Positions 10,040 through 42,245 of a stretch of DNA of 50,802 nucleotides are shown one piece after another (the stretch's first letter is position 1; every line of letters begins with the position of its first letter). The position numbers and the translations under genes were made by a program. The DNA is taken from positions 1 through 50,802 of the forward strand of contig JBKOZS010000143.1 in assembly GCA_046726015.1 (NCBI GenBank), written 5' to 3'. The notes beneath the pieces were generated by a model, which was not told the DNA's origin, did not search any database, and saw only the letters and a list, made by a program, of their open reading frames with translations. The DNA comes from Acidobacteriota bacterium. Its GTDB lineage: Bacteria; Acidobacteriota; Vicinamibacteria; Vicinamibacterales; 2-12-FULL-66-21.

Positions 10040-10042
10040 CTC

Positions 10043-10079
10043 AATCGAAGGAATCGAAGCGGAGTCGAAGGAGTCGAAC
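10043..10079. repeat. Degenerate ~9-nt tandem repeat (GGA.TCGAA) in the treZ-treY spacer
   Basis: aatcgaag gaatcgaag cggagtcgaag gagtcgaac. Confidence 0.5.
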
Positions 10080-10112
10080 GAGCATCAGATTCGTTATCGA
10101 AGGAACATCGGA

Positions 10113-11960: not shown

Positions 11961-11961
11961 G

Positions 11962-14900: not shown

Positions 14901-15261
14901 CGGCCGGCGCGCGGCGCGCGGCCTGGAACCACGGATGCTGATCGGACGTGTGGTTGATGACCAGCTCGGTGATCACGCGGATCTCACGCTTGTGCGCTTC
15001 CTCCATGAAGCGTTCGAAGTCCTGCAGCGTGCCGTAGCTCGGATGGATGTTCTCGTAATCCGCGATGTCGTAGCCGTCGTCGCGGAGTGGCGACGGATAG
15101 AACGGCAGGAGCCACAGGCAGTTGACGCCAAGGCCCTGCAGGTAGTCGAGACGGCTGGTCAGCCCCGGGAAGTCACCGATGCCATCGTTGTTGCTGTCGA
15201 AAAATGCGCGGACGTGCGCTTCGTAGATGACGGCATCCTTGTACCAGAGCGCATCAGCCAT
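11962..15261 (-). CDS. treS: Trehalose synthase fused to maltokinase (TreS-Mak/Pep2)
   Basis: N-terminal GH13 domain: [46 protein letters not shown]-terminal kinase: [27 protein letters not shown] 15261 is preferred for its short overlap with the glgE stop; the track start is 15372. Confidence 0.95.
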
Positions 15262-17293
15262 GGTCGCGCGCTCGAGGGTCAATTGCGAGGATGTGCGCCG
15301 TGCGGACGCCGGGGTCGAGTCGGACGTAGTTCCACTCGCCGCGCCAGTAATAGGTTTCGTCGGAGAGGACATCGTGCGCCTCGAAGGTGTGAGTGGGGCC
15401 GGTGCGCCAGTCCTCGAGCGGCAGCTGGATCCAGCCGTGCTGCATGCTGAACGGATCCAGGTTGACGACGACGAGGACGATATCGGATCGGTCTTCGGTC
15501 CGCTTGCTGTAGCAGATCAACTGCGGGTTGTCGGTGCGGTGAAACGCAAGGCCGCGATCGGTCTGGAGCGCTGGATGCGCGTGACGCATCCGGTTGATGC
15601 GCGCGATCATTTCGGCAAGGCTCTCCGGGTGCTCGAAGTCGCGCGGCTTAATCTGGTACTTCTCGGAGTCGAGATACTCTTCGCTGCCCGGTTTCACGGG
15701 CGTGTTCTCGCACAGCTCGAAGCCGCTGTAGATGCCATAGCTCGCGCCAAGCGTGGCCGCCAGCACGAGTCGCGCCTGGAAGGCGGCGCGGCCGCCGTGC
15801 TGCAGGTACTCGTGCAGGATGTCGGGCGTGTTCGCGAACAGGTTCGGCCGCATGTATTCACGGACGTCGGTCTGCGTCAGCTCCGTGAAGTACTCGACCA
15901 GTTCGTCCTTCGAATTGCGCCAGGTGAAGTACGTGTAGGACTGCGAGAATCCCACCTTCGCGAGATGGCGCATGACTTTCGGACGCGTAAACGCTTCCGA
16001 CAGGAAGATCGTGTCGGGGTAGGTTTTCTTGATCCTGGCGAGCGCCCACTGCCAGAAGCGGAACGGCTTCGTGTGGGGATTGTCGACGCGGAAGATCTTC
16101 ACGCCGTGCGACGCCCAGAACTCGATCACGCTCGCGAGCTCCTGCCAGAGAGCGGACCAATCCTCGGATTCGAAATCGAACGGGTAGATGTCCTGGTATT
16201 TCTTTGGCGGGTTCTCCGCGTACTTGATCGTGCCGTCGGGGCGGTGCCTGAACCACGACGGATGCGCCTTGACGTAAGGATGATCCGGCGACGCCTGGTA
16301 CGCGATGTCGAGCGCAATCTCGAGGCCATGGCGCTCCGCCGCTTTCACGAAGCGATCGAAATCCTCGAGCGTGCCGAGGCCAGGCTCGACCGCCTTGTGC
16401 CCTCCCTCAGCGGCGCCGATGGCCCACGGGCTTCCAGGGTCTGCGGGCGCGGGCGTCAGCGAATTGTTGCGTCCCTTTCGAAAGCTGATCCCGATCGGAT
16501 GGATGGGGGGTAGATAGAGCACATCGAAGCCCATGGCCGCGACGTAGGGGAGCCGCGCCGCGGCTTCATCGAACGTCGCGCTGCGCGTTGGATCGGTGCC
16601 GGCCGATCGCGGAAACATCTCGTACCACGCGCCGAAACGCGCGCGCTCGCGCTCCACCATCACGGCAAACACGCGATCGCTTCGCGTCGCGCGGCCGCGA
16701 TCTTCGTGGCGCGCCATCAGGGCTTTGAGATCGTCCACAAGTGCGGTCGTCACGCGCGTGGCAGCGTCGGTGGCGGTATCCTCGAGCGCTGCCGCCAGGT
16801 CGGTGAGGCGCTTCTTGTCGTCGGCCCTGGCGCGGCCGGCCGCGTCGCGCAGCAGTGCCGCGCCTTCGAGCAGCTCGCTCGAGACCTCTTGTCCCGCCCC
16901 CACCTTCTTTGACAGCGCGAGCCGCCAGCTCTCGAACCGATCGATCCAGCCTTCGATCGTGTATTCGTAATCGATCATCTCGGCAATGCGGAACGTCGCA
17001 CGCCAGCGATCGTTTCCGATCGCCACCATCGGCGCCTCGATCCAGCTCTGCTCGCCCTGCCGCCTCCAGAGCACGACCACGGCCAGCGTATCGTGCCCGT
17101 CGACGAACACGTCCGCCTCGACGATCACGTCCTCGCCGGGCGTTCGCTTGATTGGGAACTGTCCGCCGTCCACCGCGGGCGCCACGTTCTCGATGACCAC
17201 GCGGCGGCGGAGCTGTGGATCCAGAGAGCGAAGGTCGTTGGTTGCGTTTGCGGTCGCGGTCGCCGTTGTCGAAGGTTGCGCTCTCTTTGCCAT
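15254..17293 (-). CDS. glgE: Alpha-1,4-glucan:maltose-1-phosphate maltosyltransferase
   Basis: Motifs [55 protein letters not shown] and NTPDIL. Confidence 0.96.
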
Positions 17294-17344
17294 CTTGCAA
17301 ATCGTCAATGAAATGTTTCAGTCACCGCCTGGAAATCCTGGAAG

Positions 17345-19510
<2,166 letters not shown>

Positions 19511-19584
19511 TGAGCGGTTGTGCACAGCAGACCTTCGTAACACGCCCGGCTCTGCCGACGCAACCGAGCTCAGCGCGGCTCTGG

Positions 19585-26829: not shown

Positions 26830-26906
26830 GCCGGTGTAGCTCAGTTGGTTAGAGCACGCGGCTCATATCCGCGGAGTCCGGGGTTCAAGTCCCTGCACCG
26901 GCACCA
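26830..26906 (+). tRNA. tRNA with CAT anticodon (most likely elongator tRNA-Met; tRNA-Ile2 not excluded)
   Basis: Acceptor stem GCCGGTG/CACCGGC followed by A-CCA, D arm TAGCTCAGTTGGTTAGAGC, anticodon arm CGCGG-CTCATAT-CCGCG, T loop GGTTCAAGTCC. The G1-C72 pair argues against an initiator tRNA. Confidence 0.95.
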
Positions 26907-31834: not shown

Positions 31835-32641
31835 ATGCCGGATTATCTCGCCAACCTGTTGAGGCGCCCACCCGTCGGCTGGTGGGACATCCTCGACATC
31901 GCCATCGTGTCGCTCCTGATCTACGAGTTCCTCAAGTTGATCAGGGGGACGCGCGCGGTGCAGATGGCATTCGGATCGTTCCTGATCCTCGCGCTGTTCT
32001 ACCTGTCACGGCTGGCGCCGCTGCAGACGCTGAACTGGCTCATCCGCAATGCGCTCGTCTACGTCGCGTTTGCCGCGATCGTGATCTTCCAGTCCGACAT
32101 CCGCCGCGCGCTCGCGCACTTCGGCCAGGCACCGTTCTTCCGCTACCTGACCCGGCAGCAGGCGGCGGACGAGACGATCGAGGAGGTCGTTGTTGCCGCC
32201 ACGCTGCTGGCGCAGCACCGGACCGGGGCGATCTTTGCGATCGAACGCGAGATCGGCCTGCGGAACTACATCGAGAGCGGCATTCCGCTCGATGCGATGC
32301 TCACCTACGATCTGCTGGTGACGATTTTCAATCCGGGCTCGCCGGTGCACGACGGTGCGGTCATCTTGCAGGAAGGACGCGTCGCCGCAGCGGCCTGCTT
32401 CCTGCCTTTGACCGTCAACCCGCGCCTGAGCCGCGACCTCGGCACGCGCCACCGCGCGGCGATCGGCCTGACCGAAGAAAGCGATGCTGCTGCAGTGGTC
32501 ATCTCGGAGGAGACCGGTCAGATCGCGCTGGCGCTCGACGGTCACATCGAGCGCGGACTCACGCCCGACGAGCTTCGCGATCGGTTGCGCAACCTCGTTC
32601 TGCTGCGCCGCGGCCGCGCGCAGGCCAGCTACGAGGTGTAA
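31835..32641 (+). CDS. cdaA: Diadenylate cyclase CdaA/DacA
   Basis: Three N-terminal TM segments, IFQSDIRRAL, and DAC motifs HDGAV and GTRHRAA. Confidence 0.95.
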   Translation: MPDYLANLLRRPPVGWWDILDIAIVSLLIYEFLKLIRGTRAVQMAFGSFLILALFYLSRLAPLQTLNWLIRNALVYVAFAAIVIFQSDIRRALAHFGQAPFFRYLTRQQAADETIEEVVVAATLLAQHRTGAIFAIEREIGLRNYIESGIPLDAMLTYDLLVTIFNPGSPVHDGAVILQEGRVAAAACFLPLTVNPRLSRDLGTRHRAAIGLTEESDAAAVVISEETGQIALALDGHIERGLTPDELRDRLRNLVLLRRGRAQASYEV

Positions 32642-33551
32642 TGAAATATCATCCGTTCAGGCATCTCGGGCTGAAAGTGTTGGCCATCGCGCTCGCGACG
32701 CTTCTCTGGTTCACGGTCGCCGGCGAGCACGTCGTGGAGCGAAGCCTGCGGGTGCCGCTCGAGTTCCGCAACATTCCACCCGAGCTCGAAATGGTCGGGA
32801 ACCCGCCCGACAACGTTGACGTCCGCGTCCGCGGATCGTCTGCGCTCCTCAGCCGCGTCCAGCCAGGAGAAATCGTCGCGGTGCTGGATCTCTCGACGGC
32901 GCGCACGGGTTCGCGCCTCTTTCATATCCGCGCCGACGAGGTCCGCGCTCCGTTCGGCATTGAGGTGGCCCAGGTGGTGCCGCCGACGATTTCAATTGAA
33001 GTGGAGCGGTCCGCGCAGCGGAAGGTGCCGGTCGTTCCGGCCACGCAGGGCGAGCCTGCACCCGGATACGTCGTGGGTCGCGTCTCAGCCGAGCCGGCCA
33101 CCGTGGACATCGTCGGACCCGAGACCCGTGTCCGCCAGATTGCGGACGCGACGACCGAGCCGGTCTCGATTGCCGGGTCACGGACGCGCGTCCGCGACGT
33201 GGTGACGGTAGGTGTCGCCGATTCGTCCGTTCGCCTGGTTCAACCTCAGAGCGCAACCGTGATCGTCGAGGTATGGCCGGCGCCGATCGAACGAGGAGTG
33301 CCGGATGTGCCGGTGCGCTGGCGCAACCTGGGCGCTGGATTGCGAGCGCAGGTCTCGCCATCGCTCGTGCGAGTATCGGTTCGGGGAGGCCGCGACGCCC
33401 TCGCGTCGGTTGGCAACGACAGCATTCAAGCGTTCGTTGACCTTGCCGGCCTTGGAACCGGTCGATACAATTTGCGGGTTCAGGTGGATCCGGCCGAGAG
33501 TTTCGGGGTGACTGCGGTCGACCCCGCCGTGGTTTCGGTAACGATCAAGTG

Positions 33552-33552
<1 letters not shown>
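32641..33552 (+). CDS. cdaR: CdaR/YbbR-domain regulator of c-di-AMP synthesis
   Basis: MKYHPFRHLGLKVLAIALATLLWFTV followed by beta-rich YbbR repeats. The start overlaps the cdaA stop (TAATG). Confidence 0.88.
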
Positions 33553-34900
<1,348 letters not shown>

Positions 34901-34904
<4 letters not shown>

Positions 34905-35710
34905 ACATGGCGGGCCCTTCGACCCGGTCTTCGAGCTCGCCCAGGGCAGACGGGCCGCGTCTGAGCGTCAACGTCAACAAGGTTGCGACGCTGCGCAACT
35001 CCCGCGGCGGGGCGGTGCCGTCCGTGACGGACGCGGTTCGGGTCTGCCTCGATGCGGGAGCGCGCGGCATCACCATCCACCCACGCGCCGATCAGCGCCA
35101 CATCACCCGGACCGACGTCACCGCAATCGCCACGTTCCTGGGGCCGCACCGCCACGACGTTGAATTCAACATCGAGGGAGACCCGAGGCCCGATCTCGTC
35201 GAGATGGTGCGCGAGGTGCGCCCTCACCAGTGCACGCTTGTCCCGGTGCGTCCCGGCGAAATCACCAGCCAGGCGGGCTGGCCGCCCGAGACGCCGGTGA
35301 AGGAGCTGACGGCGCTCGTCTCCGATCTTCAGCAGCGCGGCATCCGCGTCAGCATGTTCATCGATCCCGAGCCTGCCGCGGTGAAATGGGCAGCATCGCT
35401 GGGCGCGCAGCGCATCGAGCTCTACACCGAGCCGTTCGCCCATGCGTTCAAGGAAAGCGAGGAGGCAGCCGACCGCAGCTTTCGACGCTACATCGAGGCT
35501 GCGAACCTGGCGCACGCGCTTGGCCTCGGCATCAACGCCGGGCACGATCTCGATCTCGACAATCTCGTCCTCTTCCGCACGCTGCCGCATCTCGACGAAG
35601 TCTCAATCGGCCACGCGCTGATCAGCCACGCGCTCTACGTTGGCCTTGATCGCTCGGTGCGGGATTACCTGGCGGCCTGCGCCGGGCAATCACCGGTCGG
35701 CGCACTATAA
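34901..35710 (+). CDS. pdxJ: Pyridoxine 5'-phosphate synthase
   Basis: Motifs LSVNVNKVATLRNSRG, HPRADQRHI, NIEG, IELYT, NAGHDL and EVSIGHALI. Confidence 0.96.
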
Positions 35711-35719
35711 TTAGTCAAC

Positions 35720-36343
35720 GTGTCAAAGGACGCCGTTGCTGTCGGGATCGCGGGTGTGTTTTTCGGGCTGCTCGTGGGCTGGATTATCGGCAGCCAGCAG
35801 GCAACCGGTGGCGCCCCACAACCGGCGGCTGCTCAAGCCACGAGCGGATCCGCTCCCGCAAGCTCACAGCAGCAACCGGCGCCACAGCCGGTCGACGAAT
35901 CGCGCGCGGCCGCGATGAAGACCGCGGCACAGCAGAACCCGAACGATGCTGTCGTGCGGGTGCAGCTCGGGGACATGTACTTCGACGCCGAACGGCTGCA
36001 GGAAGCGGCCCAATGGTACGAGGCGGCGCTGAAGATCAATCCGAAAGACGTCAACGCGAGCACCGACCTTGGCATCGCGTATTACTACATGAACCAGCCG
36101 GATCGTGCCCTCGTGCAATTCGAACACTCGCTGTCGATCGATCCGAAGCACTCGAAGACGCTGCTCAACCAGGGGATCGTGCGCGCGTTCGGCAAGCAGG
36201 ACCTGAAGGGCGCCACCGCGGCGTGGGAGAAGGTCCTGCAGGTTGCGCCGAACTCCGAGGAGGCCCGCGCGGCAAAGCAGGCGCTCGATGGGGTGCGCTC
36301 CGCGCACCAGAACCTCGACGCCGGCAGCGGCACCGGGCGTTGA
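35720..36343 (+). CDS. Membrane-anchored TPR protein
   Basis: N-terminal TM segment, Q/P/A-rich linker and three TPR-like repeats. TATAAT lies 8 nt before the GTG. Confidence 0.85.
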   Translation: MSKDAVAVGIAGVFFGLLVGWIIGSQQATGGAPQPAAAQATSGSAPASSQQQPAPQPVDESRAAAMKTAAQQNPNDAVVRVQLGDMYFDAERLQEAAQWYEAALKINPKDVNASTDLGIAYYYMNQPDRALVQFEHSLSIDPKHSKTLLNQGIVRAFGKQDLKGATAAWEKVLQVAPNSEEARAAKQALDGVRSAHQNLDAGSGTGR

Positions 36344-36344
36344 G

Positions 36345-36593
36345 ATGCTCCGCCTTCTCATCTTCCTGGTGCTCGTGTACTTCGTCGGCCGAGCGGTCTG
36401 GCGCCTGTTCCGCGGCATCGCCGAGGGCATGAGCGCATCGCGCGATCCACAGGCGCCGACAGCCGTCCCGCTCGTGCGCGACCCGGTGTGCGGCACGTTC
36501 GTCGTGCCCTCGCGCGCGCTGACCGCCGGCTCCGGCAACGACCTGCACTTCTTCTGCTCCGAACGCTGCCGCCAGGCATGGACGAAGCGGTGA
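36345..36593 (+). CDS. Small membrane protein with a YHS/TRASH-like metal-binding domain
   Basis: TM segment MLRLLIFLVLVYFVG, then VRDPVCGTFV...HFFCSERC. Confidence 0.8.
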   Translation: MLRLLIFLVLVYFVGRAVWRLFRGIAEGMSASRDPQAPTAVPLVRDPVCGTFVVPSRALTAGSGNDLHFFCSERCRQAWTKR

Positions 36594-37450
36594 TGGCGGT
36601 TCCCAGCGTCGCGAACCTCCGCGAAGACATCGTCGAAGTCGGACGCCGCATGTATGCGCGCGGGTACACCGCGTCGAACGACGGCAACATCAGCGTCCGC
36701 CTCGATGCCGGACGGTTGTTGATGACGCCGGCGAACGTCTGCAAGGGTTTCATGACCCCGCAGATGATGTGCATCACCGACCTCGAGGGACGGAAACTCG
36801 AAGGGGATCGCAATCCCTCCTCCGAGATGCAGATGCACCTCGAGGTATATCGGCAGCGGCCGGACGTCAACGGTGTGGTGCATGCACATCCGCCGATCGC
36901 CACCGGCTTTGCCGTCGCCGGGATCGCGCTCGACCGCGCGGTGCTGGCCGAGGTGATCACGACGCTTGGCAGCGTGCCTATTGCCGATTACGCGACCCCC
37001 TCGACGAAAGAGCTGCCGGAGGCGGTGCGCCGCTACATCAAGGCGCACGACGGCATGCTGCTCGCGAATCACGGCGCCCTGACGGTGGGGGGCGATCTGT
37101 TCTCCGCGTACTACAAAATGGAGACGATCGAGCACTTCGCAAAAATCAGTTTCGTCGCGCGGATGCTTGGCGGCGAACGGCTGCTCTCGCGGCAGGAGGT
37201 CGATCGGCTGCAAGGGCTTCGCGGCCGCTACGGCATCGCCGCTCCAGCACCAATCTGCGCGGATCCGGAGGCGTCGCAATCGGCCGACCAGGTCGCCTGT
37301 CAGACGGTGTTTGCGCCGCAGGGCGACGGCGAGCGGCTCATTCCCGATTACCGGGCTGGCGCTGGTGGAATAGGTCCGGACGGTGAAATTCGGCTAACAT
37401 ACCGCGAACTGTCAGCACTGATTGAGGCGGCCGTTCGAGAACTCAAGTAA
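36593..37450 (+). CDS. Class II aldolase (FucA/RhaD-like), BMC-associated, with a C-terminal encapsulation peptide
   Basis: Motifs NDGNISVR, PSSEMQMHL, VHAHPP and LANHG. An ~70-aa extension ends in LTYRELSALIEAAVRELK. Confidence 0.92.
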   Translation: MAVPSVANLREDIVEVGRRMYARGYTASNDGNISVRLDAGRLLMTPANVCKGFMTPQMMCITDLEGRKLEGDRNPSSEMQMHLEVYRQRPDVNGVVHAHPPIATGFAVAGIALDRAVLAEVITTLGSVPIADYATPSTKELPEAVRRYIKAHDGMLLANHGALTVGGDLFSAYYKMETIEHFAKISFVARMLGGERLLSRQEVDRLQGLRGRYGIAAPAPICADPEASQSADQVACQTVFAPQGDGERLIPDYRAGAGGIGPDGEIRLTYRELSALIEAAVRELK

Positions 37451-37491
37451 CGGCCGCCGGTATAGCAGCCAGTTGCCAGTCAGCAGTTCTG

Positions 37492-37529
37492 AGACTGGAA
37501 ACCGGAAACTGGAAACTGGAACTGGAAAC
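37492..37529. repeat. 7-nt tandem repeats (GAAACTG) upstream of the BMC-H gene
   Basis: agactg gaaaccg gaaactg gaaactg gaactg gaaac. Confidence 0.8.
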
Positions 37530-37542
37530 AAGGAGCAAGTAA

Positions 37543-37836
37543 ATGGGTGAGGCGCTCGGGATGGTCGAGACCAAGGGGCTGGTCGCAATGATTGAGGCGG
37601 CCGACGCGATGGTCAAGGCCGCCAAGGTGACCCTGGTGGGCTGGGAGAAGATTGGCGCCGGGTACGTGACGGCGATCGTCCGCGGTGACGTCGCTGCCGT
37701 GAAGGCTGCCACCGACGCCGGCGCCGCGGCGGCGCGCCGTGTCGGCGAGCTCGTGTCGGTCCACGTCATCCCGCGTCCTCACGCCAATCTCGAGGACACG
37801 CTGCCCATCGGGAAAGCCACGGCGAATACGAAATGA
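37543..37836 (+). CDS. eutM: BMC hexamer shell protein (EutM/PduA-like)
   Basis: [24 protein letters not shown], pore motif [15 protein letters not shown] and [16 protein letters not shown]. Confidence 0.96.
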
Positions 37837-37939
37837 CAAATGCCAAATGACAAATGCCGGACGAAACGTAATGAAGGCATTTAGCATTCGGCATTCGCCC
37901 TTCGAGAGCCTCAGCGCAGTCCTGAGCCATGTCGAAGGG
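37831..37939. repeat. Inverted 7-nt arrays plus a CCCTTCGA...TCGAAGGG REP-like palindrome
   Basis: aaatgac aaatgcc aaatgac aaatgcc ... ggcatttagcattcggcattc, then CCCTTCGAGAGCCTCAG...CTGAGCCATGTCGAAGGG at 37898-37939. Confidence 0.75.
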
Positions 37940-37950
37940 TCGGCATTGAC

Positions 37951-38220
37951 ATGATTCTCGCGAGGGTGGTTGGAACCGTTGTCGCGACGCGCAAGGACGA
38001 GCGGCTCGTGAGCAACAAGCTGCTCGTCGCCCGGCCGGTCGATCCCACTGGCAAGGCGGACGGCAATTACCTGGTTGCCGTCGATACCGTTGATGCCGGC
38101 TTCGGCGAAACCGTGCTGATCGTCAGCGGCAGTTCCGCCCGCATGGCATCCGGCATGAAAGACTGCCCTGTCGATGCCGTCATCGTCGGCATCGTTGACA
38201 CGGTTGAAGTACAGGATTGA
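37951..38220 (+). CDS. BMC pentamer vertex protein (EutN/CcmL family) 1
   Basis: MILARVVGTVVATRK...VAVDTVDAGFGETVL...DAVIVGIVD. Confidence 0.95.
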   Translation: MILARVVGTVVATRKDERLVSNKLLVARPVDPTGKADGNYLVAVDTVDAGFGETVLIVSGSSARMASGMKDCPVDAVIVGIVDTVEVQD

Positions 38221-38221
38221 T

Positions 38222-38488
38222 GTGCAGCTCGCGCGCGTGCTCGGCGAAGTGGTGGCGACGGTGAAGGACGAGAACCTGACGGGGTTCAAACTGCTGGTCC
38301 TGCAGCCGCTGTCCTCGTCGGGAGAGGCGGCCGGCCGTACGCTGGTCGCGCTCGATTCGGTCGGCGCCGGTGTTGGTGAGAACGTGTTCTTCGTCCGCGG
38401 CCGCGAAGCGGCGTTTCCTTTCTATCCCGCTGAGCCTCCGACCGACGCGTGCATCGTGGGCATCGTCGATCACTGGCACGTACCCTAG
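38222..38488 (+). CDS. BMC pentamer vertex protein (EutN/CcmL family) 2
   Basis: GTG start, QLARVLGEVVATVK...ALDSVGAGVGENV...DACIVGIVD. Confidence 0.93.
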   Translation: MQLARVLGEVVATVKDENLTGFKLLVLQPLSSSGEAAGRTLVALDSVGAGVGENVFFVRGREAAFPFYPAEPPTDACIVGIVDHWHVP

Positions 38489-38490
38489 CG

Positions 38491-38763
38491 ATGCAGATTG
38501 CGCGCGTGGTCGGCACGGTCGTCGCGACCCAGAAGAACCGCAAGCTCGAAGGCGCGAAGCTGCTGCTGGTGCAGCCGCTGACGCTGGATGACCAGCCGCG
38601 AGGGGTGACGCTGCTGGCGATTGACTCGGTTGGCGCGGGCGTGGGCGAGAAGGTGTTGGTCGTGATTGAAGGCAAAGCCGCCGGCCAGGCGCTTGGGAAA
38701 AAGGCGGCCGCGGTCGATGCCGCGATCATCGGCATCGTCGACGCGGTAGAGTACGAACGATGA
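38491..38763 (+). CDS. BMC pentamer vertex protein (EutN/CcmL family) 3
   Basis: MQIARVVGTVVATQK...AIDSVGAGVGEKVL...DAAIIGIVD. Confidence 0.95.
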   Translation: MQIARVVGTVVATQKNRKLEGAKLLLVQPLTLDDQPRGVTLLAIDSVGAGVGEKVLVVIEGKAAGQALGKKAAAVDAAIIGIVDAVEYER

Positions 38764-38987
38764 ACGAGGACGCGCTCCGGGCGCTCGTGCGCGACACCAT
38801 TGCGCGGCTCGGCACGTCGGGTCCGGGCGAACCGCCGTCGCCGCCGTTTGGTGCGAGTCAGCCGTTGCCGTTGGCGCGTCATGCGAGTCACTACCGCTAC
38901 ACGCTGACCAAAACCGACGGTCCGTGTCTCATCGAACCCTCGGTGCAGTGCAATCACTGCGGGTACTGCGAGAGTCACGGTCACTGA
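38760..38987 (+). CDS. Small BMC-associated protein with an N-terminal encapsulation-peptide-like helix and a C-terminal Cys/His cluster
   Basis: MNEDALRALVRDTIARL, Pro-rich linker, CLIEPSVQCNHCGYCESHGH. ATGA overlap with the previous gene. Confidence 0.8.
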   Translation: MNEDALRALVRDTIARLGTSGPGEPPSPPFGASQPLPLARHASHYRYTLTKTDGPCLIEPSVQCNHCGYCESHGH

Positions 38988-39014
38988 CGCCGGGCGTCAG
39001 CCTTCAGGCTTGAA

Positions 39015-39950
39015 GTGGGTTCCGTCCTTCTCACGCGCCGCATCCCGTCATCGGTTTTCTCGCAGCTCGAGTCGCGGCACACGGTCGACTTGAACGACCG
39101 CGATTCGCTTCCACCACCGGAACTGAAGAAGCGCCTGGCCGACAAGGACGCCGTCATCTGCGTGCTCACCGACAAGATCGACGCGTCGGTGATGGACGCG
39201 GGGCCGGCGCTCAAAGTGATCTCGAACATTGCGGTCGGATACGACAATATCGACGTGGACGCGGCGCGTCAGCGCGGCATCATCGTCACCAACACGCCGG
39301 ACGTGTTGACCGATGCGGTCGCGGAGCTCACGTGGGCGCTGATGCTCGGGATCGCGCGCCGCGTCGCTGAAGGCGATCGACTGATCCGCGCGGGTGAATG
39401 GAAGCGCTGGGGTCTCGACTTCATGCTCGGGACGGAGCTCCGGGGCAAGCAGCTCGGGATCATTGGGGCCGGCCGCATCGGCCGGGCCGTTGCCGCGAAA
39501 GCCCCGGCGTTTGGCATGAGCGTCGTGTTCTCGCGCCGTTCCGCCGATCCGGGCGACCCGCGTTACGTGTCACTCGACCAGCTGCTCATCTCGTCGGACG
39601 TCATCTCGATCCACACGCCGCAGACGCCACAGACGCGGCATCTGATCGACAAGAAGGCATTCGCACGGATGAAGCGATCGGCGCTTCTCATCAACACCGC
39701 GCGCGGGCCAATCGTGGACGAAGAGGCGCTGGTGTGGGCGCTCGGCGAGCGGCTGATCGCGGGAGCCGCCCTCGACGTGTACGAGAAGGAGCCAGAGGTG
39801 CATTCGGGCCTTCTGCGCTTCGAGAACGTCCTGCTCGCGCCGCACGTTGGCAGCGCCACACGCGAGACGCGCACCGCGATGGCGGAGCTTGCGGTCAAGA
39901 ACGCAATGGCCGTCCTGGCCGGCGATGAGCCACTGACACCCGTCACCTAG
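39015..39950 (+). CDS. D-2-hydroxyacid dehydrogenase (glyoxylate/hydroxypyruvate reductase, D-glycerate dehydrogenase family)
   Basis: Motifs AVGYDNID, TNTPDVLT, GAGRIG, INTARG, LDVYEKEP and PHVGSAT. Confidence 0.93.
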   Translation: MGSVLLTRRIPSSVFSQLESRHTVDLNDRDSLPPPELKKRLADKDAVICVLTDKIDASVMDAGPALKVISNIAVGYDNIDVDAARQRGIIVTNTPDVLTDAVAELTWALMLGIARRVAEGDRLIRAGEWKRWGLDFMLGTELRGKQLGIIGAGRIGRAVAAKAPAFGMSVVFSRRSADPGDPRYVSLDQLLISSDVISIHTPQTPQTRHLIDKKAFARMKRSALLINTARGPIVDEEALVWALGERLIAGAALDVYEKEPEVHSGLLRFENVLLAPHVGSATRETRTAMAELAVKNAMAVLAGDEPLTPVT

Positions 39951-39953
39951 GCG

Positions 39954-40649
39954 ATGCCGGCACGCAGATCCGCAACGGCCGCGCCCGTCACGCTCGTGAT
40001 GCGGCGGCTTGCCCGGGCGATTGACGGCCTCGACGAGCCCGCCGTCGAGAAGATTGCCAGGGACCAGCAGGAAGATCCGTTTCAAGTCCTCATCGCGACG
40101 ATGCTGTCGGCGCAGACGAGGGATGCGGTTACGCATGCGGCGTCGACGCGGCTGTTTCGCGTTGCGCGAACGCCGCGGTCGATGGCGAAGCTTGACGTGT
40201 CGCGGATCGAGGAGCTGATCTACCCGGTCAGCTTCTATCGCCACAAGGCGGTGCACGTCAAACAGACATGCGAGCAGATCGTGAGCCGCTTCGGCGGGCG
40301 AGTGCCGTCCACGATGGACGACCTGTTGACGCTGCCGGGGGTCGGCCGCAAGACTGCAAACCTGGTCCTGATCCTTGCGCACAGCAGCGAGGACAACATC
40401 TGCGTCGACACGCACGTGCACCGGATTGCGAACCGCCTCGGGTGGGTGCACACGCGTACGCCCGAAGAGACCGAGCACGCGCTCTATAAGGCGACCCGGC
40501 GTCGCTGGTGGCCGATCATCAACCTGTATCTCGTGACGTGGGGACAGAACGTGTGCCGGCCTGTTTATCCGCTGTGCCCGCAGTGCGTGCTGGCGGATGT
40601 GTGTCCGAAAATAGGTGTGACCAAGATAGGCAAGTTGGTGAAAGCATAA
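39954..40649 (+). CDS. nth: Endonuclease III (HhH-GPD, 4Fe-4S)
   Basis: Motifs LSAQTRD, LPGVGRKTAN, VDTHVHRI and CRPVYPLCPQCVLADVC. Confidence 0.93.
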   Translation: MPARRSATAAPVTLVMRRLARAIDGLDEPAVEKIARDQQEDPFQVLIATMLSAQTRDAVTHAASTRLFRVARTPRSMAKLDVSRIEELIYPVSFYRHKAVHVKQTCEQIVSRFGGRVPSTMDDLLTLPGVGRKTANLVLILAHSSEDNICVDTHVHRIANRLGWVHTRTPEETEHALYKATRRRWWPIINLYLVTWGQNVCRPVYPLCPQCVLADVCPKIGVTKIGKLVKA

Positions 40650-41338
40650 TGATCACATCCAACGACATGCGTACTTGGTGCTGCGCGTCGGCATTTCTCA
40701 ATGCGCGTGGGGCCCCACCCCCACGCGCTCGCGCTCGCCGGCGGCGCTTCGCGCCGCTTCACTCCGTCGCCTCGCGCGGGCCGCAGGCGCTTCTCATGCT
40801 GGGGTTCACATTGATTGTCACCCTGCCTTGGCCGGGATCGGCTCAAGACAAATCCCCTGGCGCAGGGCCAATCGTGGTCCTCGAAACAGCGAAGGGCACG
40901 ATCGAGTTCGAGACGTATCCCGAAGAAGCGCCGAAGACCGTGGCGCACATCCTGGAGCTCGTCAAGCGAGGCTTCTATAACGGGCTGCGGTTTCACCGCG
41001 CCGAACCGAACTTCCTGGTCCAGGTCGGCGATCCGCTGTCGCGTGACATGAGCCGCGAGGCGGCGTGGGGCCGCGGCGGCTCGGGGAAACCGATTGGCGT
41101 TTCAGAAGTGACGAAGAAACGCCGGCACCTGGTCGGCGCCGTTTCCATGGCGTATTCAGGCAGCCGGCGCACGGAGGCGGACAGCCAGTTCTTCATCACC
41201 CGCCGGCCGGCACCGGAGCTCGACGGCAAATACACGGTGTTCGGGCGCGTGCTGAAAGGACAGGAGGTTGTCGCGAAGATCCAAAGAGGCGACGTTCTTA
41301 GACGAGCGTATCTGAAGGACGAGGCGGCAAAATCCTGA
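40649..41338 (+). CDS. Secreted cyclophilin-type peptidyl-prolyl isomerase; signal peptide interrupted by an in-frame palindromic element
   Basis: Motifs APKTV, GFYNGLRFHR, VQVGDP, VSMA, SQFFI and LDGKYTVFGRV. The start is uncertain (40649, 40667 or 40796). Confidence 0.88.
   Translation: MITSNDMRTWCCASAFLNARGAPPPRARARRRRFAPLHSVASRGPQALLMLGFTLIVTLPWPGSAQDKSPGAGPIVVLETAKGTIEFETYPEEAPKTVAHILELVKRGFYNGLRFHRAEPNFLVQVGDPLSRDMSREAAWGRGGSGKPIGVSEVTKKRRHLVGAVSMAYSGSRRTEADSQFFITRRPAPELDGKYTVFGRVLKGQEVVAKIQRGDVLRRAYLKDEAAKS
40687..40791. mobile_element. 105-nt palindromic MITE/RPE-like element inserted in frame
   Basis: Its ends match the 23137-23352 element in reverse orientation. Its length equals 35 codons. 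Hairpins GCGCGTGGGGCCCCACCCCCACGCGC and GCGGCGCTTCGCGCCGC. Confidence 0.75.
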
Positions 41339-42245
41339 CGAGGCCCTTCAAGTCCGGATAGCGCTCGACGAATTCCTCAGGGTACTCGCCGTCGAGCGGC
41401 TGTCCGAGCTTGTGCTTGATCGTGGCGGCATTGGCGACGGACTTCGCTGAAAAATGATTGTTCGTGTAGAGGTAGGCCTTCTTCACCTCGCGTGACGCCG
41501 CGTCCGCAGCCTCGACGATCGGCTCCAGTTCGTCCGCCGTGTAGAGATAGTTGTAGCGATCCTCCGACTTCTCATGGCGCCACCACTGCCCGGCGTTCCG
41601 GCCGTGCAGCCGCATGTAATAAAACGTCCGCACGTTGGGGAGCAGTGTCTGCCTGATCGAGACGCGGAACTTCGGCTCGTCGATTTGGACGAGCGCCGCG
41701 CCGAACTCGCCAAGCACCGACAGCGTGCCCGCGGGATCGTCGCTGAAGCTCCGGTGCCGCAGTTCCACAGCCAGCTGGTAGTCCTTGAACGCCGTCAGCA
41801 GCCATTCCAGATAAGCGCGGTTGTTCCCTTCGTTCTTGAAGCTCGCGGGAAATTGCGCGAGGAGCGCGCCAAGCTTGCCCGCTTCCGCGAGCGGGTCGAT
41901 CGCACGGCGGAATTCGTCGATGTCCCGGTCGCCGAGTGACAGCGCATCAGCGCCGGCCGCCTTCGCGAACATCTCCGGATGCGTGAACTTCTGATACAGC
42001 TTCAGTGAGAATTCGAAATTCGCCGGTGTGCGTTCGGCCCAACCCTTTGTGGCCGCTGGTTTCGGGACGCCGTAGAAGCTCGAGTTGATTTCAACGGTAT
42101 CGAAGTGCTCGGCGTAGAACGCGAGCTCGTCGAAGGCGCCCTTCTTCTTTTTGGACGCGCCGGCACGAACCGGATAGAAAATGCCGTTCCAGGTCCCTCG
42201 ACCCGACGGGTAGTTCCAGCCGGAAGTGCCGACCCTCACACTCAT
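41298..42245 (-). CDS. DUF72-family protein
   Basis: MSVRVGTSGWNY, FDTVEINSSFY, LAQFPASF, AVELRH, YMRLHGRN, RYNYLY and YTNNH. Start placed at ATG 42245. Confidence 0.9.
   Translation of the reverse strand: MSVRVGTSGWNYPSGRGTWNGIFYPVRAGASKKKKGAFDELAFYAEHFDTVEINSSFYGVPKPAATKGWAERTPANFEFSLKLYQKFTHPEMFAKAAGADALSLGDRDIDEFRRAIDPLAEAGKLGALLAQFPASFKNEGNNRAYLEWLLTAFKDYQLAVELRHRSFSDDPAGTLSVLGEFGAALVQIDEPKFRVSIRQTLLPNVRTFYYMRLHGRNAGQWWRHEKSEDRYNYLYTADELEPIVEAADAASREVKKAYLYTNNHFSAKSVANAATIKHKLGQPLDGEYPEEFVERYPDLKGLVRILPPRPSDTLV

What the first reader, a model, noticed from the sequence alone, without database searches (positions are those of the whole stretch)
35706..39950. Minimal, functionally unassigned bacterial microcompartment operon
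Seen, on one strand after a TATAAT: TPR protein, YHS/TRASH protein, class II aldolase with encapsulation peptide, one BMC-H, three distinct BMC-P, a small peptide/Cys protein and a D-2-hydroxyacid dehydrogenase. There is no aldehyde dehydrogenase, alcohol dehydrogenase, PduL, acetate kinase, BMC-T, transporter or regulator, and the locus sits among housekeeping genes. Established: canonical metabolosomes need an AldDH core, and aldolase plus triple-pentamer loci resemble the Planctomycete/Verrucomicrobia fucose-rhamnose BMC. I recall an acidobacterial BMC type being catalogued bioinformatically without a demonstrated function. Inference: a constitutive organelle for sugar-phosphate cleavage and aldehyde or 2-oxoacid handling, possibly with satellite loci.
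Basis: partly seen in the sequence, partly recalled or inferred. Interest (0 to 1): 0.8.

Follow-up and report, generated by a model that had tools for sequence, protein, structure and literature searches.

The report
Acidobacterial ACI microcompartment main locus
This is the main gene cluster of a protein-shelled metabolic organelle that was already catalogued in soil Acidobacteria in 2021 but whose chemistry has never been tested.

Summary
The locus matches, feature by feature, the "ACI" bacterial microcompartment (BMC) type of Sutter et al. 2021 (PMC8217296). It has a class II aldolase with a C-terminal encapsulation peptide, one BMC-H, three BMC-P, proteins of unknown function and a 2-hydroxyacid dehydrogenase.

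The "missing" aldehyde dehydrogenase sits on another contig of the same genome (C274), just after a second BMC-H. That is the satellite arrangement published for ACI. The nearest relatives are Vicinamibacterales (Acidobacteria subdivision 6) MAGs.

What I add to the catalogue:
- No phosphotransacylase of either family and no BMC-T were found in five closed genomes of the order.
- The dehydrogenase at 39015-39950 and the 75-aa Cys protein are accessory and have been lost in several lineages.
- The 75-aa protein has an encapsulation-peptide-like N-terminal helix, a linker and a conserved Cys3-4/His knuckle.
- The CoA-acylating aldehyde dehydrogenase has a conserved C-terminal helix plus a 45-aa domain of unassigned fold.

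The likely mechanism is inferred, not shown. A ketose-1-phosphate is cleaved to DHAP and a short aldehyde, which is trapped and oxidised to an acyl-CoA. The substrate is unresolved, and rhamnose/fucose isomerases do not track the BMC. This is an ordinary member of a known, functionally open type.

The parts
35720..36343 (+). Membrane-anchored TPR protein (207 aa). It is a co-oriented neighbour and has not been shown to be a BMC part.
   Evidence: TPR_2 E 1.7e-16. The hydrophobic N-terminus is visible in the translation. It lies upstream of the aldolase in the 80 close loci and in L095, L086 and L087.
36345..36593 (+). Small membrane protein (82 aa) with a C-terminal Cys motif. It is PP0621-like and weakly YHS-like. 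Its stop codon overlaps the aldolase ATG by one base.
   Evidence: NF041023 scores 28.4 bits, below the cut-off of 45. Pfam YHS gives E 0.2.
36593..37450 (+). Class II (metal-dependent) aldolase-family enzyme of 285 aa. It is the presumed signature enzyme.
   Evidence: PF00596 E 1.5e-49. No NCBIfam equivalog reaches its cut-off; the best are OtnC at 144.6/250 and FucA at 126.9/264. The best solved relative is DrdA (6btd) at 102 bits. The catalytic Glu (PSSE) and the HxH and NHG metal ligands align.
37382..37447 (+). C-terminal encapsulation-peptide-like amphipathic helix of the aldolase (last 22 residues).
   Evidence: The match runs to residue 284 or 285 of 285 in all 80 close loci. The motif ITLTRxELxxLIxxAV is at the C-terminus of 16 of 16 distant ACI-like aldolases. 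A C-terminal EP on BMC aldolases is described in PMC4594438 (passages) and PMC8217296.
37451..37542 (+). Spacer before BMC-H. It holds 5.3 copies of the heptamer ACTGGAA (37494-37529) and an AAGGAG Shine-Dalgarno.
   Evidence: The fold is no better than shuffles (z -0.88).
37543..37836 (+). BMC-H shell hexamer protein (97 aa).
   Evidence: PF00936 E 2.8e-30. The EutM equivalog scores 144.5 bits, above its cut-off of 133. It is 72% identical to the satellite BMC-H.
37837..37950 (+). Structured spacer (two hairpins) between BMC-H and BMC-P1. It is not conserved.
   Evidence: MFE is -42.7 kcal/mol, z -3.58, with 0 of 200 shuffles as good. In most relatives BMC-H and P1 abut or overlap, and elsewhere the spacer is 30-258 nt.
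37951..38220 (+). BMC-P paralogue 1 (vertex pentamer).
   Evidence: PF03319 E 1.3e-31.
38222..38488 (+). BMC-P paralogue 2 (GTG start).
   Evidence: PF03319 E 3.2e-26.
38491..38763 (+). BMC-P paralogue 3.
   Evidence: PF03319 E 4.3e-29. One natural in-frame fusion of a P3-type BMC-P with the next gene exists (P0122).
38760..38987 (+). 75-aa accessory protein. It has an EP-like N-terminal helix (residues 3-18), a disordered linker and a C-terminal Cys/His knuckle (C56, C64, C67, C70, then H73 and H75).
   Evidence: - 2180 homologue clusters, all named hypothetical, with no Pfam family.
- Invariant residues are C56, P60, C64, C70 and G74.
- The AF2 model shows a helix, a disordered stretch and a small hairpin/knuckle, mean pLDDT 70.7.
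- The N-terminus aligns to the N-terminus of the diol dehydratase gamma chain (E 0.14). The Cys motif aligns to the structural-zinc motif of MDR dehydrogenases (E 0.011). Both come and are leads only.
39015..39950 (+). D-2-hydroxyacid dehydrogenase of the glyoxylate/hydroxypyruvate reductase kind (311 aa). It has no terminal extension and is an accessory gene.
   Evidence: - PF02826 and PF00389. Glyoxylate reductase scores 334 bits against a cut-off of 455.
- Solved glyoxylate reductases match at E 1e-80, end to end.
- It is present in 56 of 65 close loci that span P3 to nth.
- No orthologue was found in 4 of 5 nearly closed genomes, four single-contig and one of four contigs.

Best explanation
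The region is the main locus of an ACI-type bacterial microcompartment in a Vicinamibacterales (subdivision 6) acidobacterium.

Shown:
- The shell genes are one BMC-H and three distinct BMC-P here, plus a second BMC-H elsewhere. No BMC-T was found.
- The cargo genes are a class II aldolase with a C-terminal encapsulation peptide here, and a CoA-acylating aldehyde dehydrogenase on contig C274. The dehydrogenase carries a C-terminal amphipathic helix and a conserved 45-aa end domain.

Inferred:
- A ketose-1-phosphate enters through the hexamer pores. The aldolase splits it into DHAP, which leaves, and a short reactive aldehyde (acetaldehyde, glycolaldehyde or lactaldehyde).
- The shell retains the aldehyde until the dehydrogenase converts it to an acyl-CoA with NAD+.
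- No phosphotransacylase or alcohol dehydrogenase belongs to the system. So acyl-CoA/CoA and NADH/NAD+ must either cross the shell or be recycled by accessory parts.
- In this genome the accessory parts are a glyoxylate-reductase-like 2-hydroxyacid dehydrogenase (a possible NADH sink) and a 75-aa EP-tagged Cys/His metal-binding mini-protein (a possible lumen scaffold or cofactor site).
- The TPR and YHS-like membrane proteins upstream are probably only operon neighbours.
For: Identity as ACI:
- The passages of PMC8217296 read list the ACI features. These are a PF00596 aldolase with a C-terminal EP, a PF00389/02826 hydroxyacid dehydrogenase, a BMC-P triplet, at least one BMC-H, proteins of unknown function, and an AldDh consistently on a satellite locus. 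ACI is found only in Acidobacteria, mainly subdivisions 4 and 6.
- All of these features are present.
- The 80 best related loci are all Acidobacteriota or Vicinamibacterales MAGs, several labelled gp6.

Satellite locus:
- On C274, BMC-H is at 98-388 and AldDH at 389-2137.
- In the closed genomes looked at, the satellite lies 0.6 Mb or more from the main locus.
- Of 162 genomes with a strong AldDH match (E <= 1e-130), 159 also have BMC-P. This is from a phylum sample of 401 genomes.

AldDH type:
- A 69% identical orthologue (identity) scores 591 bits on TIGR02518, acetylating acetaldehyde dehydrogenase, cut-off 620.
- The window genome's own protein matches solved 3k9d at E 2.6e-144 and 5j78 at 1e-137. 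PduP-type structures match only at 1e-43 to 1e-53.

Encapsulation signals:
- The aldolase C-terminal helix is conserved in 80 of 80 close and 16 of 16 distant loci.
- The AldDH tail is conserved in 20 of 20 orthologues, with a modelled helix and a domain of pLDDT 95-97.

Aldolase chemistry: the catalytic Glu and the His ligands align with DrdA.

Minimal core:
- PF06130 and PF01515 gave 0 hits in 5 of 5 closed genomes and 0 in the window's own genome.
- Each of the 5 closed genomes has exactly 2 PF00936 domains.
Against: - No experiment exists for any ACI BMC. Four literature searches found nothing beyond the catalogue.
- The aldolase reaches no curated equivalog cut-off. Its best NCBIfam hit is a decarboxylase, OtnC, so aldol cleavage itself is an inference.
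- The 2-hydroxyacid dehydrogenase has no encapsulation peptide. It is missing from 9 of 65 close loci and has no orthologue in 4 of 5 nearly closed genomes. So it cannot be the general NAD+ recycler.
- The 75-aa protein was found in only 82 of 401 genomes, against 162 with the strong AldDH.
- It is unknown how NAD(H) and CoA would cross a shell that lacks BMC-T.
- Expression could not be examined.
- The whole neighbourhood is syntenic within the order. Adjacency there says little about function.
Confidence: 0.8

Rival explanations
1. A PVM-like fucose/rhamnose organelle. The aldolase cleaves L-fuculose-1-P or L-rhamnulose-1-P, lactaldehyde goes to lactyl-CoA, and the 2-hydroxyacid dehydrogenase plays the part of the lactate/malate-dehydrogenase-like PvmO.
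For: - PMC8217296 notes that the same aldolase family occurs in PVM and GRM5, which process these sugars, and proposes a carbohydrate role for ACI.
- The BMC-P triplet is shared with PVM. PvmO (PF02866) is listed as a PVM part in Supplementary Data 6.
- FucA-type models are among the best aldolase hits.
Against: - RhaA (PF06134) gave 1 marginal hit (26 bits) in 41 genomes of the order.
- Fucose_iso_C was found in only 17 of 41. The one in the window genome sits in a genome that also has AraD and ribulokinase.
- BMC-P was found in 37 of 37 order genomes sampled.
- No PTAC or acetate kinase partner is in the locus.
- No sugar kinase, isomerase or transporter recurs next to the 11 distant ACI-like loci whose neighbours I scanned (L086-L102, 103 of the 217 ORFs picked from 21 loci).
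Confidence: 0.15
2. A housekeeping salvage organelle. The aldolase cleaves 5-deoxyribulose-1-P (and perhaps 5-methylthioribulose-1-P) made from radical-SAM and polyamine by-products. The acetaldehyde released is captured as acetyl-CoA.
For: - The best solved relative of the aldolase is DrdA, the 5-deoxyribulose-1-P aldolase (6btd).
- The AldDH is of the acetylating acetaldehyde dehydrogenase kind.
- The genome has MtnA. This is the only class II aldolase-family gene that is neither AraD nor MtnB.
- The BMC is universal in the order sample and embedded in housekeeping operons.
Against: - DrdA leads only narrowly, with 102 bits against 95 and 89 for other family members.
- The genome has the canonical MtnB/MtnC route for methylthioribulose-1-P.
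- The flux of this salvage path is small, which makes an organelle seem costly.
- No DrdK- or DrdI-type genes were found beside any locus scanned.
Confidence: 0.15
3. A glycolaldehyde organelle. Ribulose-1-P or xylulose-1-P is cleaved to DHAP and glycolaldehyde, which goes to glycolyl-CoA. The glyoxylate/hydroxypyruvate reductase links this to glycolate and glyoxylate metabolism.
For: - The dehydrogenase is closest to solved glyoxylate reductases (E 1e-80).
- The ribulose-1-phosphate aldolase model NF053831 hits the aldolase at 102 bits.
- Glycolaldehyde is reactive enough to justify a shell (established knowledge, not tested here).
Against: - That model's cut-off is 300 bits, and several other models score higher.
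- The dehydrogenase is dispensable and has no encapsulation peptide.
Confidence: 0.12
4. The aldolase-family enzyme is not an aldolase here. It would be a decarboxylase or epimerase of the same fold (OtnC-like or AraD-like). The organelle would then handle an acid-sugar phosphate, and the AldDH would act on a different aldehyde source.
For: The best NCBIfam hit is 3-oxo-tetronate 4-phosphate decarboxylase at 144.6 bits. The second-best solved relatives are 6voq and 6vop, deposited only as "Aldolase".
Against: - The score is far below that model's cut-off of 250 bits.
- The decarboxylase reaction as I recall it yields DHAP and CO2 and no aldehyde. That would leave the tightly co-occurring AldDH without a substrate.
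- The catalytic Glu of the aldolases is kept.
Confidence: 0.08

Closest known systems
ACI bacterial microcompartment type (Sutter et al. 2021, Nat Commun 12:3809, PMC8217296; passages and Supplementary Data 6 read)
   Same: The host phylum and subdivision match. So do the PF00596 aldolase with a C-terminal EP, the PF00389/02826 dehydrogenase, the BMC-P triplet, BMC-H, the unknown proteins and the AldDH on a satellite locus.
   Different: Nothing defining differs. Points I did not see in the passages read:
- No PTAC of either family and no BMC-T in five closed genomes of the order.
- The dehydrogenase and the 75-aa protein are dispensable.
- The architecture of the 75-aa protein and of the AldDH tail.

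Supplementary Data 2, which holds the locus diagrams and descriptions, could not be read here and may cover some of this.
PVM (Planctomycetes/Verrucomicrobia) fucose/rhamnose BMC
   Same: It has a class II aldolase with a C-terminal EP as signature enzyme, three BMC-P paralogues, and a 2-hydroxyacid-type dehydrogenase in the locus (PvmO in Supplementary Data 6).
   Different: PVM encodes its AldDH (PvmJ), PTAC (PvmB) and acetate kinase (PvmG). Here the AldDH is remote and of the AdhE-N/acetylating kind. No PTAC is found, and the rhamnose and fucose isomerases do not track the BMC.
Canonical metabolosome core (PDU/EUT): signature enzyme, AldDH, PTAC, AlcDH
   Same: It has a signature enzyme that can make an aldehyde, a CoA-acylating AldDH, and encapsulation peptides on both.
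   Different: No PTAC was found in the locus or the genomes searched. No AlcDH lies in either locus; the genomes were not searched for one. The shell has no BMC-T. The locus has no regulator or transporter.
DrdA, 5-deoxyribulose-1-phosphate aldolase of Bacillus thuringiensis (PDB 6BTD; PMC6079011, passages and section 9 read)
   Same: It is the best solved relative of the aldolase. The metal ligands and catalytic Glu align.
   Different: The score is only 102 bits. DrdA has no C-terminal extension and is not BMC-associated. Here there are no drdK or drdI neighbours.
N-terminal encapsulation peptide of BMC-associated PduE (PMC4594438, passages read)
   Same: The 75-aa protein begins with an 18-residue amphipathic helix followed by a poorly conserved linker. 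The profile aligns to the first 41 residues of the diol dehydratase gamma chain.
   Different: E is only 0.14. What follows the linker is a 35-aa Cys/His knuckle, not an enzyme subunit.

Membership tests
ACI BMC type | Host is an acidobacterium, mainly subdivision 4 or 6 | tested here: met
   The 80 best related loci (72-92% aldolase identity) are all Acidobacteriota or Vicinamibacterales MAGs, some labelled gp6. The window's own record is unnamed.
ACI BMC type | PF00596 class II aldolase with a C-terminal encapsulation peptide | tested here: met
   PF00596 E 1.5e-49. The C-terminal amphipathic motif is conserved in 80/80 close and 16/16 distant loci.
ACI BMC type | Hydroxyacid dehydrogenase (PF00389/PF02826) in the locus | tested here: met
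   Both domains are at 39015-39950. Note that 9 of 65 close loci lack it.
ACI BMC type | Triplet of BMC-P and at least one BMC-H | tested here: met
   There are three PF03319 genes and one PF00936 gene in the locus. No other PF03319 gene is in the genome.
ACI BMC type | AldDH on a satellite locus | tested here: met
   C274 carries BMC-H at 98-388 and AldDH at 389-2137. The same arrangement holds in 5 of 5 closed genomes.
ACI BMC type | AldDH phylogenetically close only to MIC3; shell proteins score on the catalogue's ACI HMMs (BMC Caller) | not testable with these tools
   The catalogue's HMMs and trees are not on hand. Only the HMM names were read.
Canonical metabolosome (AldDH + PTAC + AlcDH core) | CoA-acylating PF00171 aldehyde dehydrogenase with an encapsulation peptide | tested here: met
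   PF00171. TIGR02518 scores 591 bits on an orthologue. The catalytic Cys aligns with 3k9d. The C-terminal helix is conserved.
Canonical metabolosome (AldDH + PTAC + AlcDH core) | Phosphotransacylase (PduL PF06130 or Pta PF01515) | tested here: not met
   There are 0 hits in the window's own genome (88% complete) and 0 of 5 closed genomes of the order for each family. The controls rang.
Canonical metabolosome (AldDH + PTAC + AlcDH core) | Alcohol dehydrogenase for NAD+ recycling | tested here: inconclusive
   None lies in the main or satellite locus. The genome was not searched for PF00465 or PF00107.
PVM BMC | Fucose/rhamnose feeding enzymes and AldDH, PTAC and acetate kinase encoded with the shell | tested here: not met
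   None of these is in the locus. RhaA gave 1 marginal hit in 41 genomes and Fucose_iso_C was in 17 of 41.
YHS/TRASH domain proteins (for 36345-36593) | Significant match to the YHS profile | tested here: inconclusive
   Pfam YHS gives E 0.2 and 12 bits against a cut-off of 30.3. PP0621 scores 28.4 bits against a cut-off of 45. The Cys pattern is YHS-like by eye.

The most novel reading that the evidence does not exclude
The ACI organelle is a constitutively made, stripped-down "housekeeping" metabolosome: two hexamers, three pentamers, an aldolase and an acylating AldDH, with no PTAC, AlcDH or BMC-T. It would dispose of a universal by-product sugar phosphate such as 5-deoxyribulose-1-P and capture the acetaldehyde as acetyl-CoA. 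The 75-aa EP-tagged Cys3-4/His mini-protein would be a new kind of lumen component. It could be a metal or Fe-S site bound at or near the pentamer vertices that replaces the missing cofactor-recycling enzymes, or a nucleator of the cargo core.
Probability: 0.1. Interest if true: 0.7.

Novelty: already known. Interest (0 to 1): 0.33.

Why it matters
Acidobacteria are among the most abundant soil bacteria. In my samples the BMC-P triplet was found in 208 of 401 genomes of the phylum and in 37 of 37 of this order. So this organelle is a common feature of soil carbon metabolism, yet its substrate is unknown.

Its core lacks the phosphotransacylase, and no alcohol dehydrogenase or trimeric shell protein is encoded with it. 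Textbook metabolosomes are thought to need all three. Working out how it recycles NAD+ and CoA would test the general model of BMC function.

The locus itself is an ordinary member of a type catalogued in 2021 and adds no surprise of its own.

Tried and rejected
- **Expression.** The look-up of sequencing runs listed no RNA holder. The 8 DNA runs held shares of 0.15 or less, so no reads were laid.
- **Riboswitch or RNA element.** Rfam at gathering threshold found only a tRNA at 26830-26903. Nothing was found in 35500-39100 at E <= 1.
- **Promoter.** The TATAAT at 35706 was not called. The 2 promoter-like and 6 terminator-like sites in 33000-41500 are at shuffle level.
- **Spacer RNA.** The BMC-H/P1 hairpins fold well, but the spacer is absent or of variable length in relatives. 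I rejected it as a conserved regulator.
- **Fold of the 75-aa protein.** Foldseek against the PDB gave 0 matches at E <= 10. The protein atlas gave only acidobacterial hypotheticals. Pfam gave nothing at E <= 10.
- **Fold of the AldDH end domain.**
  - Foldseek gave no match at E <= 0.001, and VIA wide gave a best Z of 4.7.
  - A profile search of PDB sequences gave nothing meaningful.
  - The weak PduM (PF15953) hit appeared in 1 of 4 orthologues at E about 0.1 and is treated as chance.
- **Fused forms of the 75-aa protein.** One longer protein was found, a BMC-P fusion. A single case may be a lost stop codon.
- **Complex prediction (BMC-P3 with the 75-aa protein).** The job was never accepted because the queue was full, so there is no result of any kind.
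- **Context scan.** Of 217 neighbouring ORFs picked from 21 distant loci, only the first 103 (L086-L102) were scanned. No recurrent kinase, isomerase, transporter or regulator appeared. Single cases were a Rex-like gene in L088 and a PfkB kinase in L096.
- **Supplements.** Supplementary Data 2 of PMC8217296 (PDF or large zip) could not be read.

Full report
**What is in the sequence**

Between 35720 and 39950 nine ORFs lie head to tail on the + strand.
- A TPR protein with a hydrophobic N-terminus (35720-36343).
- An 82-aa protein with a hydrophobic N-terminus and a C-terminal Cys motif (36345-36593).
- A class II aldolase (36593-37450).
- One BMC-H (37543-37836).
- Three BMC-P (37951-38220, 38222-38488, 38491-38763).
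- A 75-aa protein (38760-38987).
- A D-2-hydroxyacid dehydrogenase (39015-39950).

Pfam and NCBIfam confirm the families. The small "YHS/TRASH" protein is only weakly supported. PP0621 scores 28.4 bits against a cut-off of 45, and Pfam YHS gives E 0.2.

Gene junctions are tight. The PP0621-like stop overlaps the aldolase ATG. P1/P2 and P2/P3 are 1-2 nt apart. P3 and the 75-aa gene overlap by ATGA. The only spacers are 92 nt before BMC-H and 114 nt after it.

The surroundings are housekeeping genes: tilS, ftsH, folP, a DisA_N (cdaA-like) gene, ybbR, glmM and pdxJ upstream, and endonuclease III and a cyclophilin downstream.

**The missing core enzyme is elsewhere in the genome**

The window is contig C143 of a 6.04-Mb, 341-contig assembly that is 88% complete.
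- PF03319 occurs only in the window.
- PF00936 occurs twice, in the window and on contig C274.
- On C274 (15,012 bp) a 96-aa BMC-H at 98-388 is followed at once by a 582-aa aldehyde dehydrogenase at 389-2137.

The dehydrogenase is of the CoA-acylating kind.
- An orthologue from a relative, 69% identical, scores 591 bits on TIGR02518 (acetylating acetaldehyde dehydrogenase, cut-off 620). It scores 525 bits on the AdhE model and only 221 bits on the PduP/EutE-type model.
- The window genome's own protein matches solved 3k9d at E 2.6e-144 and 5j78 (acetylating acetaldehyde dehydrogenase) at 1e-137. PduP-type structures match at 1e-43 to 1e-53. The active-site Cys region aligns.

**It is the catalogued ACI type**

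I read passages of Sutter et al. 2021 (PMC8217296). They describe ACI as follows.
- It has 125 members, all in Acidobacteria, mainly subdivisions 4 and 6.
[quoted passage not shown] - The function is unknown, and a carbohydrate role is proposed.

Every one of these features is met here.

The paper's Supplementary Data 6 lists ACI-specific HMM names for the aldolase and the dehydrogenase. Supplementary Data 2, which holds the locus diagrams, could not be read.

Four full-text searches found no later experimental work on this type.

**Relatives**

A scan of one genome per species with the aldolase found 566 related stretches. The 80 best (72-92% identity) are all Acidobacteriota or Vicinamibacterales MAGs.
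- In 25 of these 80 loci all 14 genes from ybbR to the cyclophilin appear in the same order and strand.
- The other 55 show sub-strings of the same order. These arise from contig ends or from single genes under my 50% coverage threshold. No locus shows another order.
- Because the whole neighbourhood is syntenic, adjacency inside the order says little about function.

In a sample of 401 genomes of the phylum:
- BMC-P was found in 208, mostly as three copies, and in 37 of 37 genomes of the order, own genome included.
- The AldDH was found at E <= 1e-80 in 182 genomes.
- Of the 162 with E <= 1e-130, 159 also have BMC-P. The three exceptions are G213, G253 and G295.
- These tallies include one unpublished genome, G152.

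The 43 BMC-P genomes without an AldDH match include a second BMC type with its own AldDH inside the locus (L089, L094, L100, L105, L106, L112, L115, L118).

In the single-contig genomes looked at, the satellite lies 0.6 Mb or more from the main locus.

**What the core is**

Five single-contig genomes of the order each have exactly two PF00936 domains, one per locus. So they have no BMC-T.

PduL-type and Pta-type phosphotransacylases were found in none of the five, nor in the window's genome, while the control genomes rang.

The dehydrogenase at 39015-39950 resembles solved glyoxylate reductases end to end (E 1e-80). It has no room for an N- or C-terminal extension. It is also not constant.
- Among 65 close loci that hold both P3 and nth on one contig, 56 have it, 8 have only the 75-aa gene and 1 has neither.
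- Four of five nearly closed genomes (four single-contig, one of four contigs) have only 40-43% paralogues.
- In G073, P3 is followed directly by nth.

The 75-aa protein family was found in 82 of 401 genomes, and in 30 of 37 of the order, always next to BMC-P. It was not found in five of seven genomes of family f4.

The constant set is therefore the aldolase, two BMC-H, three BMC-P and the AldDH.

**Encapsulation signals**

- *Aldolase.* Its last 22 residues form an amphipathic motif. The aldolase match runs to residue 284 or 285 of 285 in all 80 close loci. The motif recurs as ITLTRxELxxLIxxAV at the C-terminus of 16 of 16 distant ACI-like aldolases. This fits the published C-terminal EP of BMC aldolases (PMC4594438, passages).
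- *AldDH.* Its tail is conserved in 20 of the 22 orthologues fetched. For the other 2, my script picked the wrong strand, and I dropped them.
  - The tail has a Pro/Ala linker, an amphipathic helix, a second linker and a 45-aa end domain.
  - The end domain has invariant F, V, E, V, A, I and a TP-A motif.
  - AF2 models the helix, and models the end domain as a small alpha/beta unit at pLDDT 95-97.
  - No fold relative was found.
- *The 75-aa protein.* It has 2180 homologue clusters, all unnamed.
  - AF2 gives a helix at residues 3-18, a disordered linker and a small hairpin with a Cys knuckle.
  - C56, P60, C64, C70 and G74 are invariant. E59, H66, C67 and G68 are nearly so.
  - Its profile aligns at the N-terminus to the first 41 residues of the diol dehydratase gamma chain (E 0.14). 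BMC-associated orthologues of that chain carry an EP there (PMC4594438).
  - At the C-terminus it aligns to the structural-zinc motif of two MDR dehydrogenases (E 0.011 and 0.087). These are leads, not proofs.
  - One natural fusion of a P3-type BMC-P with this protein exists.

**Substrate**

The aldolase keeps the catalytic Glu and the His metal ligands seen in DrdA, but it reaches no curated cut-off.
- The best NCBIfam hits are OtnC at 144.6/250, FucA at 126.9/264 and ribulose-1-P aldolase at 102/300.
- The best solved relatives are DrdA at 102 bits, 6voq at 95 and pneumococcal FucA at 89. 6BTD is DrdA according to PMC6079011.

The genome's two other family members are AraD (next to ribulokinase) and MtnB (next to acireductone synthase). 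MtnA is also present.

In 41 genomes of the order, RhaA gave one marginal hit and Fucose_iso_C was found in 17. So the classical rhamnose and fucose routes do not track a BMC that is universal there.

I scanned 103 of the 217 neighbouring ORFs picked from 21 distant loci. That covered eleven of the loci (L086-L102), and all eleven sit among housekeeping genes with no recurrent kinase, isomerase, transporter or regulator.

The aldehyde could be acetaldehyde, glycolaldehyde or lactaldehyde. I cannot choose between them.

**Verdict**

But it is a member of a BMC type catalogued in 2021, with its AldDH on the published kind of satellite locus.

The mechanism I commit to is ketose-1-phosphate cleavage followed by aldehyde capture as acyl-CoA inside a minimal shell. 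Cofactor exchange would go across the shell, or be helped by dispensable accessories.
- Membership of the type is close to certain.
- The aldolase/AldDH logic is likely.
- The substrate and the roles of the two accessory proteins are open.

Noticed in passing
window 37494-37529: There are 5.3 tandem copies of the heptamer ACTGGAA in the spacer just upstream of the BMC-H Shine-Dalgarno. The region is not unusually structured (z -0.88).
   Followed up: partly
window 37834-37953: Two strong hairpins lie between BMC-H and BMC-P1 (-42.7 kcal/mol, z -3.58). In relatives this spacer ranges from none (genes overlapping) to 258 nt, and the long versions are also highly structured. This looks like a variable inserted element rather than a conserved regulator.
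   Followed up: yes
L125 (own contig C274) 1994-2134; alignment A3: The ACI aldehyde dehydrogenase ends in a phylum-wide conserved 45-aa alpha/beta domain with the motif FVCExDV...TI(I/V)TPxARD. AF2 gives it pLDDT 95-97, and it has no Pfam family or fold relative.
   Followed up: yes
P0122 (metagenome protein, 174 aa): This is a single natural in-frame fusion of a P3-type BMC-P with the 75-aa Cys protein. It hints that the small protein works at the pentamer, but it may be no more than a lost stop codon.
   Followed up: partly
window 31835-34904: The BMC locus lies directly downstream of a DisA_N (c-di-AMP synthase-like) gene, ybbR, glmM and pdxJ. This order is kept in the 80 close relatives.
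   Followed up: no
window 7091-19543 (- strand): A run of five alpha-glucan genes sits here. They include a trehalose synthase/maltokinase-like fusion, GlgE and branching/debranching-type amylases.
   Followed up: no
L089, L094, L100, L105, L106, L112, L115, L118: A second BMC locus type occurs in other Acidobacteriota families. Its order is BMC-H, BMC-P, AldDH (27-34% identical to the ACI one), an optional further BMC-H, then two more BMC-P. These genomes lack the ACI-type AldDH.
   Followed up: partly
L088 11883-12641 (-); L096 10749-11756 (-): There are two single-case neighbours of ACI-like loci. In L088 a Rex-like redox-sensing repressor (CoA_binding + Put_DNA-bind_N) lies just upstream of the aldolase. 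In L096 a PfkB sugar kinase sits where the aldolase would be.
   Followed up: no
L117 (G347) about 12880-15300: In one family with six BMC-P genes, the ACI-like locus is followed by an ORF that looks by eye like an RnfC/PduS-type protein. After it come a 182-aa ORF that begins like a BMC-domain protein and two further BMC-P. These were seen only as translations.
   Followed up: no
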